64,000 bases of DNA, from assembly GCA_965218055.1 (NCBI GenBank), contig CBDCKA010000002.1, positions 1,136,514 through 1,200,513 on the forward strand. Reading direction: 5' to 3'. The position numbers and the translations under genes were made by a program. The notes beneath the pieces are model-generated. The model was not told where the DNA came from. It worked only from the letters and a program-made list of their open reading frames with translations, and did not search any database. Shown here in pieces: positions 51,541 to 58,465 of the stretch; the stretch's first letter is position 1; every line of letters starts with the position of its first letter. This DNA comes from Terriglobia bacterium (lineage in GTDB: Bacteria > Acidobacteriota > Terriglobia > JAJPHL01 > JAPKYU01).

Positions 51541-53110
51541 CCGGAGGTGTACACCGAATGGGTGAGAGCCAAAAACAGGCGTTTCAACTGTCATTCAACC
51601 GGTTTCTGCGGGTCACATTTCAGGGATCGCGAATCACTTCCGACGGCGGTCTGATTCTGGTGCGCGAGTTGGACGAACGTTTGGGGTTCGGCGAACTTAT
51701 CGAACAGCACTTGATCGACTCTCGGGGAAGAACACCCGGTTGCCCCTCGCTGACTTGCTGCGGCAGTCCATCTACAGCCGCTTGGCAGGATACGAAGACG
51801 TCAACGACGCCGAGCGGCTTTCCCAAGATCCGACGTTCCGGCTGATCGGTTCGGAGAAGATCTGGGAACGTGGCGCAGCCCTGACTTCCCGGTTACAGTC
51901 GTTCGAGACAGAACTGCTGACGCAAGACGAGAACCTTGCTGGTTTGGCAGCGATCAACCGGGATTTGATCGCCAGGGCGGAAGCTATGGATGCGCCGCGC
52001 CGGGTGGTGCTGGACATGGACAGCACCGAGATCCCGGTCTACGGGGAGCAGGAACAGAGCGCCTACAACGGGCATTTCGAGTCGAGTTGCTATCACCCGT
52101 TGTTGCTGTTCAGTCGCGAGGGTGACTGTCTGGCGGCCAAGCTGCGACCCGGCAACGTGCACAGCGCCGAGGATTGGGAAGAACTTCTCCTGCCAGAGAT
52201 CGAACGGCAGCAGAAGCTGGGCAAGGAAGTGGTGTTTCGCGCCGACGCCGCCTTCGCCAAGCCGGAGATCTACGACGCACTGGAGGAGCGGGACGTGAAG
52301 TATGCGATTCGCATCCCGGCCAACGACAGTCTGGAGAGGGACATCGCGGAGTTGTTGACGCGGTCAGTGGGGCGACCGAGCCACAAGCCGGTGGTCTGGT
52401 ACAAGAGCTTTCTCTACCAGGCAGCCAGTTGGAAAAAGGCGCGGCGGGTGGTGGCGAAGGTGGAGTTCCACTTTGGCGAACTGTTCCCTCGCGTGGGGTT
52501 CATCGTCACCAATCTGGAGACCGACAGCCGGGCGGTGGTCCGGTTCTACAACAAGCGGGGCACCGCAGAGCAATGGATCAAGGAAGGCAAGCAGGCGGTA
52601 AAGATGACCCGGCTGAGTTGCCATCGGTTTCGGTCGAACGAGGTGCGCCTATGGCTGAGCCTGATCGCCTACAACTTGGGAAACCTGTGGCGGCGGCTGG
52701 TGCTACCGAAGAGGATCAACAACTGGTCGCTGACGAGTTTGCAGCAGCGGCTGGTGAAAACGGGCGGACGGCTGGTGAAACATGCACGATATTACTGGCT
52801 TTTGCTGGCCGAAGGGCACTTGAGCCGGAGGCTGTTCAGCAGCATGCTGCGAACGATCTCGGCACTGCCGCTGCCAGACGGCTAGCGACCCAGGAGAGAG
52901 GGTAATTTTAGGTGCTCAGAAGTGGTCGGGCCGGACAAGTGTCAGCGGCGAGGCAGGCTGGGCAGGCGAAACCCGCACAGCGACTCCGAAGAACAGCCAA
53001 AATGTGCCGCACTACCACCTCAAAGAGGCCCGGGCGATTTGCGATTGACACGACAGGGTACGAGGCATAGGTTTTCGGGTGAAGGGGAAGCTCAAAATGG
53101 AAATTCCGGC
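51541..53110 (+). mobile_element. IS1380-family insertion sequence (about 1.6 kb; ends approximate)
   Basis: The transposase has the IS1380 hallmarks (…TSDGGLILVRELDERLGFGELI…RLAGYEDVNDAERL…YNGHFESSCYHPLLLF…LVKHARYYWLLLAE). The left end is placed near CCGGAGG at 51541. The right end is placed where LOG-gene homology breaks, at about 53095-53115. Confidence 0.55.
51558..52885 (+). pseudogene. IS1380-family DDE transposase, -1 frameshifted at the run GGGGAAGAA (about 51728)
   Basis: The N-terminal 58 codons are in the 51492-frame (MGESQKQAFQLSF…DSRG). The remainder is in the 51740-frame (KNTRLPLADLLRQSIYSRLAGYEDVN…). One missing base would restore the conserved DSRGKNTRLPLADLL. Confidence 0.75.
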
Positions 53111-53315
53111 TTAGATGTCGTGGGATGACGCCGGCGACACTGCCGCCGTGCGCAAGGACGGCATTGGCCAGGACCCCCATCAGCCCGACGCGGGCGCCGC
53201 CGTAAACCAGCCCAATCCCTTCCGTCGCCATCAGGCGGCCCAGGGTCTCGGCCTGTTCGACATACCCCTTCTCGTGTCCGATGTTGCCGGCCAAGTAGAC
53301 GCAGATGTGCTTCAT
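53095..53315 (-). pseudogene. LOG-family protein (cytokinin riboside 5'-monophosphate phosphoribohydrolase-like), 3'-truncated
   Basis: MKHICVYLAGN…VYGGARVGLMGVLANAVLAHGGSVAGVIP matches the LOG GGxxGxMG/PGGxGT blocks. Similarity ends after about 75 codons, at the inferred IS1380 right end. Confidence 0.5.
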
Positions 53316-53569
53316 GCCATTGGATGTGCTGGGTTGACACCACGTTCGGAGGCGTCTCTGTTTGGTGATCCCGTGGTCGACATCATACCGACTCTCCAAC
53401 TCGGCGCTGGTGACCTATCGCTGCTGGACGATCAGCGCTCCTTATCCCGTTCCGGCATCAACACGAACTTGGGGTACGCCTTGATCCCGAGTTTCGCGAC
53501 GTCGCCGACGAGTTGTTCCGCTCGGTTCAACACCTTTGAACGACGGCCGCACACATGGCCCTCAACTGC

Positions 53570-54331: not shown

Positions 54332-54592
54332 ATGAACAAAAAACATCATCGTATTGCAGCTGACGTAAAAGCCGATATCCTACGCCGCGTCAAGGAAGAA
54401 GGCATCTCGGTGGCCCAGGCCGCCAAGGATCACGGTATTTCTGAAGGGAGCATCTATGGTTGGATGGTAAAAGGAGCAACCGGTGCCCCGTCCTGGGCGG
54501 AGTTCTCCCGACTTCAGAAGCAGAACAGAGAACTCCTGGAACTCGTGGGCGAGATCACGCTCAAGCTCTCCATGACTCAAAAAAACAATTGA
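54332..54592 (+). CDS. IS3-family transposase OrfA (copy 4)
   Basis: Identical to copy 1. Confidence 0.85.
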   Translation: MNKKHHRIAADVKADILRRVKEEGISVAQAAKDHGISEGSIYGWMVKGATGAPSWAEFSRLQKQNRELLELVGEITLKLSMTQKNN

Positions 54593-55377
54593 GCGAAGGA
54601 AGAAACAAATCAGCGCTTGCCCGAGCCCTTGGCATATCCCGCGCGAGCCTGTATTACGTCCCAAGAATGAAGGAGAAGGACTGGCGCCTCAAGGTCCGCC
54701 TGGAAGAAGAGCTGCAGATCCATCCCTCCTACGGCTCCCGGCGAATTGCTACGGCACTGGGACTCTGCCGCCAGCGGGCGCAGAGGGTCATGCGTCTGTT
54801 TGGCATCAAGCCCTACCGCAGGAGAGGCAGAAAATGGAGAAAATCCAAGGTTTCCCGGACCTATCCCAACCTCCTGCTCGCGCTCATGCCCGCATATGCA
54901 AACCACATCTGGGCAACGGACTTCACCGAGTTCGTGCAGCACGGAAAGAAGGTCTATGTGGCGACCGTGATCGATCTCTACACCCGCCGGATCCTGGGAA
55001 TCCAGGTTGCGGTGAGAAAGGGAGCCGCGCTCACCATTCAGGCGCTTTCCAACGCCCTGCTCCATCATCCGCGCCCGGGTCTATTCCACTCCGACAACGG
55101 GAGGGAGTATGACGCGATGGCGTTCACTGAAATCCTTGATGGATGCGGCATCGTGATTTCACGGAGCCGCCCGGGGTGCCCTTGGGAGAACGGATACCAG
55201 GAATCGTTCTACGACAAATTCAAGGTTGACCTGGGAGATCCGAACCGCTTCAAAACACTGGGGGAGCTAGTGGCGGAGATCTACCGCACCCTGTGGGACT
55301 ACAACAACACGCGGATTCACTCCGCGCTCAACATGCCGCCTGTGGTATTCGCCAAACGGTATGCGTTAGTCGCGTAA
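54460..55377 (+). CDS. IS3-family transposase OrfB (copy 4)
   Basis: Identical to copy 1. Confidence 0.85.
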   Translation: MDGKRSNRCPVLGGVLPTSEAEQRTPGTRGRDHAQALHDSKKQLSEGRNKSALARALGISRASLYYVPRMKEKDWRLKVRLEEELQIHPSYGSRRIATALGLCRQRAQRVMRLFGIKPYRRRGRKWRKSKVSRTYPNLLLALMPAYANHIWATDFTEFVQHGKKVYVATVIDLYTRRILGIQVAVRKGAALTIQALSNALLHHPRPGLFHSDNGREYDAMAFTEILDGCGIVISRSRPGCPWENGYQESFYDKFKVDLGDPNRFKTLGELVAEIYRTLWDYNNTRIHSALNMPPVVFAKRYALVA

Positions 55378-55406: not shown

Positions 55407-55922
55407 TCAGTCCTTGACAGCCTCGACACTAACCTCCTCTCCAGCGCCGATTATGGCGACCTCGGAATCGCAGCCCTTGAAACCGAGGAAAGGAATAACG
55501 ACTCCTGTACTTGATAGTGGGAGGGACGGACTGATCACGGACCAAGTGTTGTCGCTGCCCATGTGCTGCACGTAGAAGGTGTCCACCTTCACACAGCCGT
55601 CACCGTCGTCAACGATCTCCCCGTAGCCGAAGCGCTCCTGTTCTGTGGGAGGAAAGTACCAATAATGGACGCCCTTGGCTGCAAATTCTTCGGATTTGAA
55701 TCTGGCCCACATTCCGTCTGCAAAAGAAAACTCCTTTAATTCGCCATCAGGTCCCCTAAGAAAAACGTCGTATTGTGAAGGGGACGAACAGAGGTTGAAG
55801 ACGTGGAACGCCGTGCTCCATCCGACTCCCTGGCGGATGTGGGGAATGAACTGGTTTGACTGCGCGAAAGCGACTGTGGATAAAAGGGACAGCAGGACCG
55901 GCAAGATCAGGATGGGCCTCAT
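55407..55922 (-). CDS. secreted hypothetical protein
   Basis: Signal peptide MRPILILPVLLSLLSTVAFAQ; 171 aa. Confidence 0.5.
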   Translation of the reverse strand: MRPILILPVLLSLLSTVAFAQSNQFIPHIRQGVGWSTAFHVFNLCSSPSQYDVFLRGPDGELKEFSFADGMWARFKSEEFAAKGVHYWYFPPTEQERFGYGEIVDDGDGCVKVDTFYVQHMGSDNTWSVISPSLPLSSTGVVIPFLGFKGCDSEVAIIGAGEEVSVEAVKD

Positions 55923-56300: not shown

Positions 56301-56452
56301 AGCCTAGTCCGCACTTAGCGCACTACCTAAGACCAGGTAGTGTCCTAATTTGACCCAGGGGCGGTTTTGGGCTTGACAGGGACCATGTTGTGCCATGGTA
56401 GCACACCATACCGCATCTGGTGGTCTGACTTGAGTCCGTGGCGTTTTTGTGC

Positions 56453-56481
56453 TTGAAAGCGCCTTGGGGGACAGATATTCT
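56453..56481 (+). promoter_or_regulatory. sigma-70-like promoter (TTGAAA-17-TATTCT) for the small-protein/aspartic-protease cassette
   Basis: TTGAAA at 56453-56458 and TATTCT at 56476-56481. The predicted 5' UTR is about 137 nt and contains a GGGGT-GATTGT-ACCCC hairpin and a strong AAAGGAGGAGAG Shine-Dalgarno. Confidence 0.4.
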
Positions 56482-56624
56482 GACAGAGGTGGCATCATAA
56501 TTTGAAGCTCCTCCTGTGATTATATCCTTGACTAACCTCGCGGGGGGTGATTGTACCCCGAAGCTCACCCACGAAGGCATCTTCCACCAAATCCAACCTA
56601 AGCATCTTATTAAAGGAGGAGAGC

Positions 56625-56879
56625 ATGAGTATGGGAAAAGGAACACTTCTAGGGAAAGAGATTGCCTTTTTTGAAAGAGAGCAAGAGATGCTGTTGCGGG
56701 AGTATCCCAATCGATACCTCGTGATCTACGGCGATGCCCTGGAGGGCGACTTCGGGGAGTACAAAAATGCTCTGAAGTTCAGCTTCGACAAGCATGGCGA
56801 GGAGCCAGTTCTCATTCGCCGTCCTGGAGACAAGACACAAACCATCGTTGCGCCAGCACTCGTATTGGGGTTGCTGTAA
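56625..56879 (+). CDS. small hypothetical protein (84 aa) partnered with a retropepsin-like protease
   Basis: MSMGKGTLLGKEIAFFEREQEMLLREYPNRYLVIYGDALEGDFGEYKNALKFSFDKHGEEPVLIRRPGDKTQTIVAPALVLGLL. A strong Shine-Dalgarno precedes it and its stop overlaps the next start (TAATG). Confidence 0.6.
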   Translation: MSMGKGTLLGKEIAFFEREQEMLLREYPNRYLVIYGDALEGDFGEYKNALKFSFDKHGEEPVLIRRPGDKTQTIVAPALVLGLL

Positions 56880-57355
56880 TGGCGATCTTCAACATCCGAG
56901 CTGAAAGGCACGATAGGGATGGGCGCGTCGTAGCGGCCCCCGAAGTACTCATGCAGGGCGGTCCCGTCCTGCCTGCGATATTGACGCTACCAAGAGATTT
57001 AGAGAAAGCACTTCCAGGCCCAAGATCGTTGCAAGGGGTTGCCCTGATCGATACGGGGGCCTCCAGGAGTTGCTTCGACATTGAAGCGGCAGAAGAAATT
57101 GGCTTGCCTGTTAGGAACACGGAAGATATTGCGTCCGTTTCGGATGTCGTCAAAGACGTTCCAATATTTGCAGGGGAACTGACCATCCTGGGACTCACAA
57201 AGTTCGATCTCCTAGCCGCAGGACTCCCATTGAAGCGAACATGGCTCAAAGGAAAAGATACACCTCCCTTGATCGCTCTTGTTGGGCGAGATATCCTCAG
57301 CCGAGGGATGTTCGTCTACAACGGCCCGGATGGTTTTGCATCTCTGGCCATTTGA
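56879..57355 (+). CDS. retropepsin-like (clan AA) aspartic protease
   Basis: Catalytic motif ALIDTGAS with hydrophobic-hydrophobic-DTGA in the usual position of bacterial retropepsin-like proteases. 158 aa, translationally coupled to the upstream small gene. Confidence 0.75.
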   Translation: MAIFNIRAERHDRDGRVVAAPEVLMQGGPVLPAILTLPRDLEKALPGPRSLQGVALIDTGASRSCFDIEAAEEIGLPVRNTEDIASVSDVVKDVPIFAGELTILGLTKFDLLAAGLPLKRTWLKGKDTPPLIALVGRDILSRGMFVYNGPDGFASLAI

Positions 57356-57451
57356 TTTTCTTCAAGCGTTAATTTAAGATTAAAGCCTCCGGGACTGCTC
57401 TCCACAGCCCCGGAGGACCGGGAAGCGGCGCTGATTCAGGAGTTCCGCTGT

Positions 57452-58465
57452 GAGCTTGTCCACTTAGAAAAGTGAACTCTTCTCCGAGAAGTCAAGCCAC
57501 CAGATCCCTGTAGGGCACTGCGGTCCCGCGCAACAGGTTCTTCAGGGTGTCCCCCCATATATTCGGGTTCTTCCGCCCGTTGAATCGGTAGGTGAACTCG
57601 TTCACGTAGCGGTGCAGGTGCTTCGTGCTCATCTTGTGGAAGCTGCCGATCAGCCCGCGCTTGAACAGGCTCCAGAAATTCTCGATGGTGTTGGTGTGGA
57701 TGTTCCCGCGCACGTACTCCCGCATGTGGTTGATGAACTGGTGGCGGTAGTCTTTCCCCAAAGACTTGTAGGCTTGGTACTGGTCTGTGACCACCATTTC
57801 CGCCTTGGTGGAAACCCTGTCCCTCACAACTCCGGTTAGGACCGCCTTGCTGGGAGTGGGGATGGGCCGCGCCTCAACCTTGCCCCCGCGTTCGATCATT
57901 CCGACGACCGGCTGTTTTTCATACGGGTTGCGCTTCCGGCGACGGTCATACTTGCCGCCCACGTAGGTTTCGTCCACCTCCACGATTCCTTCCAGCTTAG
58001 GGCCGCCAGCGCTCTGCATGGCAGCCCTGATGCGGTGGCACAGGTGCCAGGCGGTCTTGTAGGAAACCCCCAGGTCCCGCTGCATCTGCTTTGCCGATAG
58101 CCCCTTCTTGGCGTTGCATACCAGGGTAATAGCCAGGAACCACTTATTCAGCGGAAGGTGGGTATCGTGGAAGATGGTTCCAGTTGTGGCCGTGAACTGA
58201 TAGCGGCAGGTCTTCTCAAGGCACTGGAGCAGGTGGCGCACCTTGCCGGTCTTGCCCTTGCCCTTGAACCTGGAGATCCGACTTTCCCCACAGATGGGGC
58301 AGCGCACAACACCATCCGGCCAGCGCATCTGTTCCACTTTGGCCAGGCAGGCATCCTCGGAAGCGTAGCGTTTTTGAATGTCGATGATGTTCATTAGCCA
58401 GAGTGTACGCCTGATTCCCGTCTTTGTCAAGCACATAATCACCAAACTTTTCTCTTGACAAGCTT
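57452..58465 (-). mobile_element. IS1595-family insertion sequence (about 1.0 kb)
   Basis: Imperfect terminal inverted repeats AGCTTGTCcActtaGAAAAGT (57453-) and AGCTTGTCaAgagaGAAAAGT (reverse complement, ending 58464) bracket a single transposase gene. Confidence 0.7.
57492..58394 (-). CDS. IS1595-family (ISXO2-like) transposase
   Basis: N-terminal zinc finger (CPICG…C…C) and the ISXO2-like DDE domain (…VEVDETYVGGK…NTIENFWSLFKRG…). Confidence 0.85.
   Translation of the reverse strand: MNIIDIQKRYASEDACLAKVEQMRWPDGVVRCPICGESRISRFKGKGKTGKVRHLLQCLEKTCRYQFTATTGTIFHDTHLPLNKWFLAITLVCNAKKGLSAKQMQRDLGVSYKTAWHLCHRIRAAMQSAGGPKLEGIVEVDETYVGGKYDRRRKRNPYEKQPVVGMIERGGKVEARPIPTPSKAVLTGVVRDRVSTKAEMVVTDQYQAYKSLGKDYRHQFINHMREYVRGNIHTNTIENFWSLFKRGLIGSFHKMSTKHLHRYVNEFTYRFNGRKNPNIWGDTLKNLLRGTAVPYRDLVA

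What the first reader, a model, noticed from the sequence alone, without database searches (positions are those of the whole stretch)
56453..57355. Self-contained, IS-flanked cassette: 84-aa protein translationally coupled to a retropepsin-like aspartic protease (DTGA) – candidate uncharacterised two-component module
The sequence shows a consensus-like promoter (TTGAAA-17-TATTCT) and a ~137-nt leader with a GGGGT/ACCCC hairpin. A near-perfect Shine-Dalgarno (AAAGGAGGAGAG) precedes the 84-aa gene, whose stop overlaps the start of the 158-aa ALIDTGAS protease (TAATG). That protease has the hallmark of single-domain retropepsin-like enzymes that must dimerise to be active. The pair sits between an IS3-family copy and an IS1595-family element and is unrelated to its chromosomal neighbours. 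The tight small-partner + protease layout with its own promoter recalls toxin/antitoxin or protease-activated defence modules. I cannot name a described system with this composition.
Basis: partly seen in the sequence, partly recalled or inferred. Interest (0 to 1): 0.7.

Follow-up and report, generated by a model that had tools for sequence, protein, structure and literature searches.

The report
Small-protein/retropepsin pair on an IS
A small protein and a retrovirus-type aspartic protease form a strictly conserved, uncharacterised two-gene unit that spreads between bacterial phyla and here rides inside an IS1595-type insertion sequence; it may be a protease-based addiction or defence module, but its function is untested.

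Summary
An 84-aa gene (56625-56879) and a 158-aa gene (56879-57355) overlap at TAATG behind a strong Shine-Dalgarno.

- **Partner:** the 84-aa protein is a divergent DUF5678-fold protein.
- **Pairing:** the partner lies directly upstream of the protease in 90 of 92 genomic loci across many phyla and in 12 of 14 viral contigs.
- **Co-evolution and selection:** the two genes co-evolve (Mantel r 0.76). Both are under purifying selection (dN/dS 0.06 and 0.12).
- **Fusions:** natural fusions exist (2xDUF5678 + retropepsin).
- **Neighbours:** no third gene is conserved.
- **Context here:** the pair is more than IS-flanked. It lies inside an IS1595-family transporter IS, and the closest homologue (L001) has perfect 26-nt inverted repeats plus an 8-bp target duplication around pair and transposase.

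I found no described system of this composition.

Function is inferred only. The most likely reading is a toxin-antitoxin-like addiction or defence cassette in which the small protein regulates the protease. This is a new variant of a known kind, of moderately high interest.

The parts
56359..56379 (+). IS1595 inverted-repeat-like box A (GGGCGGTTTTGGGCTTGACAG), in the first of three diverged ~78-nt tandem units
   Evidence: 15 of 21 identical to the transposase-side IR. IR alignment; tandem units.
56439..56459 (+).
   Evidence: 16 of 21 identical, joint best of about 128,000 positions in the window.
56453..56481 (+). Sigma-70-like promoter candidate TTGAAA-17-TATTCT
   Evidence: 9 of 12 consensus match. 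3 sites found against 0.8 expected in the region. Weak evidence.
56514..56534 (+). IR-like box C (CTGTGATTATATCCTTGACTA); the most likely left end of the transporter IS
   Evidence: 16 of 21 identical to the transposase-side IR. It is also the box closest to the L003 IRL (GGTAATTATGCCCTTGACTAA). No target duplication was found.
56612..56621 (+). Shine-Dalgarno AAAGGAGGAG
   Evidence: Read directly from the sequence.
56625..56879 (+). 84-aa DUF5678-fold partner protein, with the C-terminal motif PALVLGLL
   Evidence: ORF. Family HMM E 3e-26. 14 of 50 relatives hit PF18929. The AF2 model matches Pandoravirus DUF5678 proteins at TM 0.62-0.66. dN/dS 0.06.
56879..57355 (+). 158-aa cytoplasmic retropepsin-like aspartic protease (D58-T-G-A; G136-R-D)
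57386..57416 (.). 13-bp GC-rich hairpin between the convergent protease and transposase genes; terminator-like on the minus strand
   Evidence: (I25).
57492..58394 (-). IS1595-family transposase (300 aa, starting MNIIDIQ)
   Evidence: Zn_ribbon_IS1595 at 4.7e-11 and DDE_Tnp_IS1595 at 6.7e-38. Start codon read.
58402..58444 (-). Transposase-side terminal inverted repeat (TGGTGATTATGTGCTTGACAA, 58444-58424) carrying the transposase promoter TTGACA-17-TACACT

Best explanation
SHOWN:
- The region encodes an obligately paired, translationally coupled operon.
- The upstream gene encodes an acidic, cytoplasmic, DUF5678-fold protein of 84 aa.
- The downstream gene encodes a cytoplasmic single-domain retropepsin-like aspartic protease of 158 aa with an intact catalytic signature.
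- The pair is inherited and horizontally transferred as one unit across many bacterial phyla. It has no conserved third gene.
- It is sometimes fused into one polypeptide.

SHOWN for the closest homologue, PROBABLE for this window:
- The pair is passenger cargo of an IS1595-family transporter IS. The layout is left IR, small gene and protease, then the transposase on the opposite strand, then the right IR.
- The element sits in a 4.6-kb low-GC mobile island next to lpxA/lpxD.

INFERRED mechanism:
- The protease is active as a homodimer.
- The small protein is its dedicated binding partner. It either holds the protease in check or is its substrate. Its flexible hydrophobic C-terminal octapeptide (PALxLGxL in this subfamily) is a candidate occupant of the substrate cleft.
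- The cassette would then behave like a toxin-antitoxin addiction or abortive-defence module that pays for the upkeep of the IS or plasmid carrying it.
For: - **Pairing:** the partner is upstream in 90 of 92 genomic loci and 12 of 14 viral loci. Remote 142-aa protease subfamilies keep it too.
- **Overlapping reading frames:** most common overlap is 13-14 nt, seen in 40 of 66 pairs.
- **Co-evolution:** Mantel r = 0.76, with 0 of 1000 permutations reaching it.
- **Purifying selection on both genes**.
- **Rosetta-stone fusions:** P0199 and P0200.
- **Protease fold and catalytic residues:**
- **DUF5678 fold of the partner:**
- **Disordered C-terminal tail of the partner:** pLDDT about 50 or below over roughly the last 15-20 residues.
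- **No signal peptide or TM segment**.
- **Variable neighbours:** 123 Pfam families among 138 neighbour ORFs, with a few restriction genes. These include GmrSD and MmeI plus an integrase.
- **Plasmid context:** repA and relaxase neighbours.
- **Two copies on one genome record** in two MAGs.
- **Cross-phylum near-identity**.
- **IS cargo:**
  - L001 has perfect 26-nt IRs and the 8-bp TSD ATTGATTA around pair plus transposase.
  - L039 has perfect 24-nt IRs around transposase plus pair.
  - In the window, the two best matches to the transposase-side IR among about 128,000 positions lie just upstream of the small gene, in inverted orientation. Nothing above background lies between the protease and transposase stops.
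  - An IS1595 transposase lies next to the pair in 7 of 92 loci and within 3 kb in an eighth.
- **Precedent:** passenger genes are described for IS1595 'transporter IS' (Siguier et al. 2009, as cited in PMC11891212).
Against: - No toxicity, inhibition or cleavage was tested. The complex could not be modelled.
- The small protein has no recognisable DNA-binding fold. It is acidic, and no conserved operator lies upstream. Canonical type II autoregulation is therefore not supported.
- The PALxLGxL tail is absent from remote subfamilies and from the fusions.
- In the window, no 8-bp target duplication flanks any IRL-like box. The boxes match at only 15-16 of 21 and occur three times in tandem.
- In L089 a minimal IS1595 lies beside the pair rather than around it.
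- More than 90% of pairs have no IS1595 nearby.
- Defence-gene enrichment among neighbours is mild.
- There is no match in PLSDB plasmids or in cultured phages.
Confidence: 0.45

Rival explanations
1. Dedicated anti-phage abortive-infection system. The partner senses infection or is degraded during it, and the released retropepsin then cleaves host or phage proteins.
For: - Some loci lie beside GmrSD, MmeI or DUF1156-methylase genes and integrases.
- The protease domain gives a weak hit to the PADLOC candidate PDC-M08B.
- The pair is mobile and occurs twice on one genome record in two MAGs.
Against: - Only about 6-8 of 138 nearest neighbours are defence-type. Most are housekeeping genes.
- The partner matches no PADLOC model.
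- The PDC-M08B match covers only 36 residues around DTG, at E of 4e-4 or weaker.
- This rival is not mutually exclusive with the TA-like reading.
Confidence: 0.2
2. Non-toxic maturation pair. The protease trims the partner's C-terminal tail, or the partner is an adaptor that delivers substrates. This would be a Ddi1-like arrangement of small domain plus retropepsin with a regulatory or proteostasis role.
For: - The partner has a beta-beta-alpha-beta core followed by a flexible tail with an invariant Gly.
Against: - The tail motif is not conserved across subfamilies.
- A patchy, mobile distribution is unusual for a proteostasis function.
Confidence: 0.15
3. Transposition accessory genes. The pair regulates or assists IS1595 transposition.
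For: The pair lies inside IS1595 IRs in L001, L039 and probably the window.
Against: - 84 of 92 loci have no IS1595 transposase within about 4 kb.
- IS1595 relatives carry other passengers (L003) or none (L089).
Confidence: 0.03
4. Ordinary housekeeping, periplasmic or phage-morphogenesis protease with a chance upstream ORF.
Against: - There is no signal peptide or TM segment.
- The upstream ORF is conserved, co-evolving and under selection.
- Neighbours vary.
- Only 14 loci were found in 2.9 million viral contigs.
Confidence: 0.02

Closest known systems
Clan AA retropepsin-like proteases of prokaryotes: Pfam PF13650 Asp_protease_2, NCBIfam TIGR03698 (clan_AA_DTGF) and TIGR02281
   Same: D-T-G-A active site, the G-R-D motif and a single-lobe retropepsin fold, which implies a homodimeric enzyme.
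   Different: - The window protein scores below every curated cut-off: PF13650 21.2 against 24.3 bits, and TIGR02281 14.1 against 57.95 bits.
- It carries a conserved N-terminal extension of about 50 aa beginning MPIxN.
- It has no membrane anchor.
- It is always preceded by a DUF5678-like gene.
DUF5678 (Pfam PF18929)
   Same: The alpha-beta-beta-alpha-beta core. 14 of 50 relatives match the Pfam model. The AF2 model matches Pandoravirus DUF5678 proteins.
   Different: The window protein itself gives no Pfam hit. This subfamily adds a conserved C-terminal PALxLGxL tail. DUF5678 has no assigned function, and no paper in the searched library discusses its function.
Type II toxin-antitoxin / plasmid addiction modules
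   Same: Two small, overlapping, co-directional genes. Mobile, in variable contexts, twice on one genome record in two MAGs, next to plasmid repA genes and carried as IS cargo.
   Different: No known TA toxin is a retropepsin. The putative antitoxin lacks an HTH, RHH or AbrB DNA-binding domain, and no conserved operator was seen. Toxicity is untested.
ImmR/ImmA-type (Xre-COG2856) repressor-protease pairs of mobile elements
   Same: A small upstream gene overlapping a downstream dedicated protease gene on mobile DNA, where the protease's natural substrate is its own partner. This comparison rests on my own knowledge of ICEBs1.
   Different: ImmA is a metalloprotease and ImmR is an HTH repressor. 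Here the protease is aspartic and the partner is not a recognisable DNA binder.
IS1595-family transporter IS (tIS, e.g. ISNha5; Siguier et al. 2009)
   Same: Zn-ribbon plus DDE IS1595 transposase, terminal IRs, 8-bp TSD and passenger genes unrelated to transposition.
   Different: I found no description of this passenger, a protease pair. The window copy has three degenerate left-end boxes and no TSD.
PADLOC candidate system PDC-M08
   Same: Its B component shares the retropepsin DTG region (E 4e-4 to 6e-4).
   Different: The match covers 36 residues only. The small partner matches no PADLOC model, so this is not that system.
Eukaryotic Ddi1 (UBL-RVP-UBA)
   Different: No detectable homology between DUF5678 and ubiquitin-like domains. 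The window has two separate genes.

Membership tests
Retropepsin-like clan AA aspartic proteases | Catalytic Asp in a hydrophobic-hydrophobic-D-T/S-G-A motif | tested here: met
   ALIDTGAS at residues 55-62. L56, I57, D58, T59, G60 and A61 are invariant in 45 sequences.
Retropepsin-like clan AA aspartic proteases | Single-lobe retropepsin fold | tested here: met
Retropepsin-like clan AA aspartic proteases | Score above the curated threshold of a family model (PF13650, PF13975, TIGR02281, TIGR03698) | tested here: not met
   Window protein scores: PF13650 21.2 against 24.3 bits; PF13975 19.1 against 28.2; TIGR02281 14.1 against 57.95; no TIGR03698 hit. At family level, 43 of 45 relatives hit PF13650 (best 3e-7) and 34 of 45 hit TIGR03698 (best 9e-7). 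This is a divergent subfamily of the clan.
Retropepsin-like clan AA aspartic proteases | Homodimerisation to form the active site, and proteolytic activity | not testable with these tools
   Only a monomer could be modelled.
DUF5678 (PF18929) | Sequence match to the Pfam model | tested here: inconclusive
   The window protein has no hit at E up to 1. 14 of 50 family members hit, with best E 1.1e-5. The fusion P0199 has a precomputed faint DUF5678 hit.
DUF5678 (PF18929) | Same fold as annotated DUF5678 proteins | tested here: met
   Foldseek against BFVD: the top named hits are DUF5678 domain-containing proteins of Pandoraviruses (probability 1.00, TM 0.62-0.66). The model's mean pLDDT is 73.5.
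Type II toxin-antitoxin module | Two small adjacent co-directional, translationally coupled genes that always co-occur | tested here: met
Type II toxin-antitoxin module | Mobile, patchy distribution; on plasmids or transposable elements; multicopy | tested here: met
Type II toxin-antitoxin module | Antitoxin with a DNA-binding domain that autoregulates the operon | tested here: not met
Type II toxin-antitoxin module | One product is toxic and is neutralised by direct binding of the other | not testable with these tools
   Only indirect support for binding: fusions and co-evolution.
IS1595-family transporter IS | Transposase with an N-terminal Zn ribbon and the IS1595 DDE domain | tested here: met
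   PF12760 at 4.7e-11 and PF12762 at 6.7e-38.
IS1595-family transporter IS | Terminal inverted repeats enclosing transposase and passenger genes | tested here: inconclusive
   - Window: 15-16 of 21 identity at three tandem boxes upstream of the small gene. Two of them are the two best matches in the window.
- L001: perfect 26-nt IRs around pair plus transposase.
- L039: perfect 24-nt IRs.
IS1595-family transporter IS | 8-bp target-site duplication | tested here: not met
   - Window: the right flank AAACTTTT has no matching left flank at any of the three boxes.
- L001: met, with ATTGATTA on both sides.
PADLOC PDC-M08 | Both components (A and B) match | tested here: not met
   B matches only weakly, in 7 of 45 relatives with best E 3.7e-4. 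The partner matches no PDC model.

The most novel reading that the evidence does not exclude
A widespread, previously undescribed class of protease-based conflict module. A cytoplasmic bacterial retropepsin would be gated by a dedicated DUF5678 partner, probably through the partner's C-terminal tail acting as pseudo-substrate or substrate. The module would function as a toxin-antitoxin or abortive-defence cassette that hitch-hikes on IS1595 transporter ISs, plasmids and occasionally phages. This would assign a first function to DUF5678 and a first cytoplasmic role to prokaryotic retropepsins. It could also bear on the origin of UBL-retropepsin (Ddi1-like) and retroviral protease regulation.
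Probability: 0.3. Interest if true: 0.8.

Novelty: new variant of a known kind. Interest (0 to 1): 0.6.

Why it matters
- Prokaryotic retropepsin-like proteases are poorly understood. The few studied ones, to my knowledge, are envelope-associated.
- This family is cytoplasmic and has an obligate partner from a domain family with no known function.
- The partner family is large: 4,685 clusters at 50% identity with E up to 1e-3. Protease relatives occur at 229 loci in a set of 185,579 species genomes.
- Its mobility pattern resembles that of toxin-antitoxin or defence cassettes.
- If the protease is a toxin or effector held by its partner, this would be a new enzymatic class of TA or defence effector. 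It would also be a compact two-gene system that is directly testable in E. coli.
- It is a clean example of an insertion sequence capturing an operon as cargo.

Tried and rejected
- **AFDB50 fold search:** not available.
- **Partner against PADLOC:** no hit.
- **Leader hairpin or riboswitch:**
  - The fold is not better than shuffles.
  - No Rfam match.
  - A possible anti-SD pairing (56508-56529 with 56600-56621) is not in the MFE structure.
- **17-nt inverted repeat bracketing the cassette** (56415-56431 / 57489-57505): about 0.6 such pairs are expected by chance in 3.9 kb (my own estimate), so I dropped it.
- **A minimal IS1595 ending between protease and transposase:** the best IR match there is 11 of 21, which is background level.
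- **Conserved operator or promoter upstream in homologous loci:** none found.
- **Independent insertions of the same transporter IS:**
  - L039 and L054 proved syntenic rather than independent.
  - Metagenome scans for both IRs found nothing.
- **Other collections:** PLSDB plasmids and cultured phages gave no match.
- **Literature:** searches for DUF5678, PF18929, PDC-M08, retropepsin with toxin-antitoxin, retropepsin-like with bacteria and antitoxin, and retropepsin with anti-phage found nothing relevant.
- **A conserved third gene:** none among 138 nearest neighbours.

Full report
**1. Observation**

The 84-aa gene runs from ATG 56625 to TAA 56877-56879 and follows AAAGGAGGAG. The 158-aa gene starts at ATG 56879 (TAATG overlap) and ends at 57355. 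It contains ALIDTGAS.

The promoter-like TTGAAA-17-TATTCT (56453-56481) is present, but it matches only 9 of 12 consensus positions. Such sites are only modestly over-represented in the region (3 found, 0.8 expected). The leader from 56488 to 56640 folds no better than shuffled sequence (z = +0.5) and matches no Rfam family. I therefore do not count the GGGGT/ACCCC stem as a feature.

The surroundings are as described, with one refinement below:
- a DDE_Tnp_1_4 transposase at 51740-52885;
- an IS3-family element at 54332-55377;
- an IS1595 transposase at 57492-58394 on the minus strand;
- lpxA and lpxD beyond 58.8 kb.

GC content is 52-57% between 54.0 and 58.6 kb, against 60-69% outside.

**2. 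The protease**

Profile searches on the window protein alone are sub-threshold: PF13650 at 21.2 against 24.3 bits, and TIGR02281 at 14.1 against 57.95 bits. Evidence at the family and structure level is stronger:
- The protein has a family of 155-165-aa relatives (75 found).
- In these relatives L56-I-D-T-G-A61, G136-R-D138, L140, Y147 and G149 are invariant.
- 43 of 45 relatives match PF13650, and 34 of 45 match TIGR03698.
- The AF2 model is confident (pLDDT 94).
- It carries an N-terminal extension of about 50 residues.
- It has no signal peptide or transmembrane segment.

It is therefore a cytoplasmic, probably catalytically competent, divergent member of the retropepsin clan.

**3. The small protein**

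A word-based search found only one relative. Context look-ups of protease homologues then showed an 81-88-aa gene directly upstream each time, overlapping the protease start.

I built an HMM from these genes and ran it over all fetched loci.
- The partner was found in 90 of 92 genomic loci. These came from a scan of 185,579 species genomes that detected 229 protease relatives.
- It was found in 12 of 14 viral-contig loci.
- The two genomic exceptions are a solo protease (L090) and a degraded copy at a contig end (L037).

Family assignment:
- 14 of 50 members match Pfam DUF5678 (best E 1e-5).
- The AF2 model has an alpha-beta-beta-alpha-beta core at pLDDT above 80 and a low-confidence tail.
- Its best named structural matches are DUF5678 proteins of Pandoraviruses (TM 0.62-0.66).

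A profile search of 1.84 billion cluster representatives found 4,685 clusters at E up to 1e-3. The subfamily that contains the window protein ends in a conserved hydrophobic octapeptide, P-A-L-x-L-G-x-L. Remote subfamilies keep the partner but not this motif.

**4. The pair is one unit**

- Overlapping reading frames are the rule. An overlap of 13-14 nt occurs in 40 of 66 pairs.
- Pairwise identities of partners and proteases are strongly correlated (r = 0.76; none of 1000 label permutations exceeded 0.12).
- Both genes are under purifying selection, with median dN/dS of 0.06 and 0.12 and the overlap excluded.
- Two proteins of 376 and 385 aa fuse two DUF5678-like domains to a retropepsin domain and a C-terminal hydrophobic helix. 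One of them lies in a phage-like gene block.
- No third gene is conserved. The 138 nearest-neighbour ORFs fall into 123 Pfam families, mostly housekeeping. There is a sprinkling of GmrSD, DUF1156 methylase, MmeI, integrase, plasmid repA/relaxase and IS genes.
- Two MAG genome records each carry two copies.
- Pairs that are 82-89% identical occur in MAGs assigned to different phyla. This could reflect horizontal transfer or mis-binning.

**5. Relation to IS1595**

In L001, the closest homologue (61% and 51% identity), perfect 26-nt inverted repeats enclose the pair and a convergent IS1595 transposase. The 8-bp direct repeat ATTGATTA flanks the whole unit. This is a 2,193-bp transporter IS. In L039, perfect 24-nt repeats enclose transposase, a 149-aa ORF and the pair.

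In the window, the transposase-side repeat is at 58444-58424 and carries the transposase promoter. Across both strands of the 64-kb window, the two best matches to this 21-mer (16 of 21) lie at 56514 and 56439. A 15 of 21 match lies at 56359. All three are upstream of the small gene and in inverted orientation. The best match between the protease and transposase stop codons is 11 of 21, which is background level.

The three boxes sit in three diverged tandem units of about 78 nt. In L089 a minimal IS1595 lies beside the pair rather than around it.

An IS1595 transposase is adjacent to the pair in 7 of 92 loci and within 3 kb in an eighth. Passenger-carrying IS1595 members are an established category (Siguier et al. 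2009, as cited in PMC11891212).

The window copy lacks a target duplication, so its left boundary is probable rather than proven.

**6. Mechanism**

Shown:
- an obligate, co-evolving, mobile gene pair;
- an intact aspartic-protease catalytic site;
- a cytoplasmic location;
- fusion of the two parts in some lineages;
- carriage by IS elements and location next to plasmid repA genes.

Inferred:
- The partner binds the protease.
- Retropepsin clefts hold about eight extended, mostly hydrophobic residues (my knowledge of HIV-type proteases). The partner's flexible hydrophobic C-terminal octapeptide is therefore a plausible pseudo-substrate or substrate.
- The whole arrangement behaves like an addiction or abortive-defence cassette.

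Against a canonical type II TA system:
- The partner has no DNA-binding fold and is acidic.
- No conserved operator is present upstream.

Against a dedicated defence system:
- Defence neighbours are few.
- PADLOC recognises only the DTG region, weakly, as PDC-M08B. It does not recognise the partner at all.

A maturation or adaptor role (Ddi1-like) is not excluded. A role in transposition is very unlikely, because most pairs have no IS1595 nearby.

**7. Novelty and verdict**

No paper in the searched library describes DUF5678 function, a retropepsin TA or defence system, or this gene pair. I rate it a new variant of a known kind: a mobile two-gene conflict-type module with an unprecedented protease/partner composition, here riding a transporter IS. 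Interest is 0.6.

The leader hairpin is not supported, and the TA or defence function remains a hypothesis.

Noticed in passing
window 56310-56565: Three diverged tandem units of about 78 nt. Each contains an IS1595 inverted-repeat-like box with a TTGAC(A/T) hexamer, at 56359, 56439 and 56514. TRF does not call them. A local alignment of units 1 and 2 scores 46, against a maximum of 33 in a shuffle control run on a neighbouring pair of segments. I cannot explain why the left end is triplicated.
   Followed up: partly
L003:6259-8157: An IS1595 relative of the window's element (transposase E 8e-79). It carries a different passenger, a 253-aa ORF of unknown function, in the same convergent layout. 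It lies 2 kb from another copy of the small-protein/protease pair on a plasmid-like contig with RepA_C, a relaxase and a resolvase.
   Followed up: partly
L107:4001-5158 (protein P0199); also P0200: Single ORFs that fuse two DUF5678-like domains, a low-complexity linker, a retropepsin domain and a C-terminal hydrophobic helix. They sit in a co-directional, phage-like gene block. No match in cultured phage genomes.
   Followed up: partly
proteins P0198, P0203, P0263, P0284, P0299: Proteins made of two tandem DUF5678-like domains (160-198 aa). Their contexts were not examined.
   Followed up: no
L081 versus L055 and L047: Pairs from a Verrucomicrobiia MAG and from Acidobacteriota MAGs are 82-89% identical at the protein level. 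This indicates either recent cross-phylum transfer or mis-binning.
   Followed up: no
L089:1040-2051: A minimal IS1595 (15-nt IRs containing CTTGAC) inserted directly upstream of a pair rather than enclosing it. It may represent an intermediate stage of cargo capture.
   Followed up: partly
window 55407-55922 (minus strand): A 171-aa ORF with a hydrophobic N-terminus (MRPILILPVLLSLLSTVAFA) and no Pfam match, lying between the IS3 element and the cassette. The same gene is present on metagenome contig L092.
   Followed up: no
window 51740-53399: A DDE_Tnp_1_4 transposase (51740-52885) abuts a SLOG/LOG-like ORF on the opposite strand, of which only a short stretch (residues 41-94) matches the Pfam model (52908-53399). 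This would be a third IS in the same 7-kb stretch and suggests an insertion hotspot or a decaying island.
   Followed up: no
L108:2754-3429 and L109:236-897: A remote 142-aa protease subfamily keeps the DUF5678-like partner, but the partner lacks the PALxLGxL tail. In L108 the pair sits among housekeeping genes (dfp, dut, a ThiF-like gene).
   Followed up: partly
L012-L091 record titles: By their record titles, some relatives come from MAGs of the kind recovered from marine sponges (for example a Methylococcales symbiont of Iophon sp.; Aestuariivita, Ca. Binatia, Nitrospirales, Ca. Porisulfidus), and many others from soil or groundwater (Acidobacteriota). The source of the window itself was not determined.
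   Followed up: no
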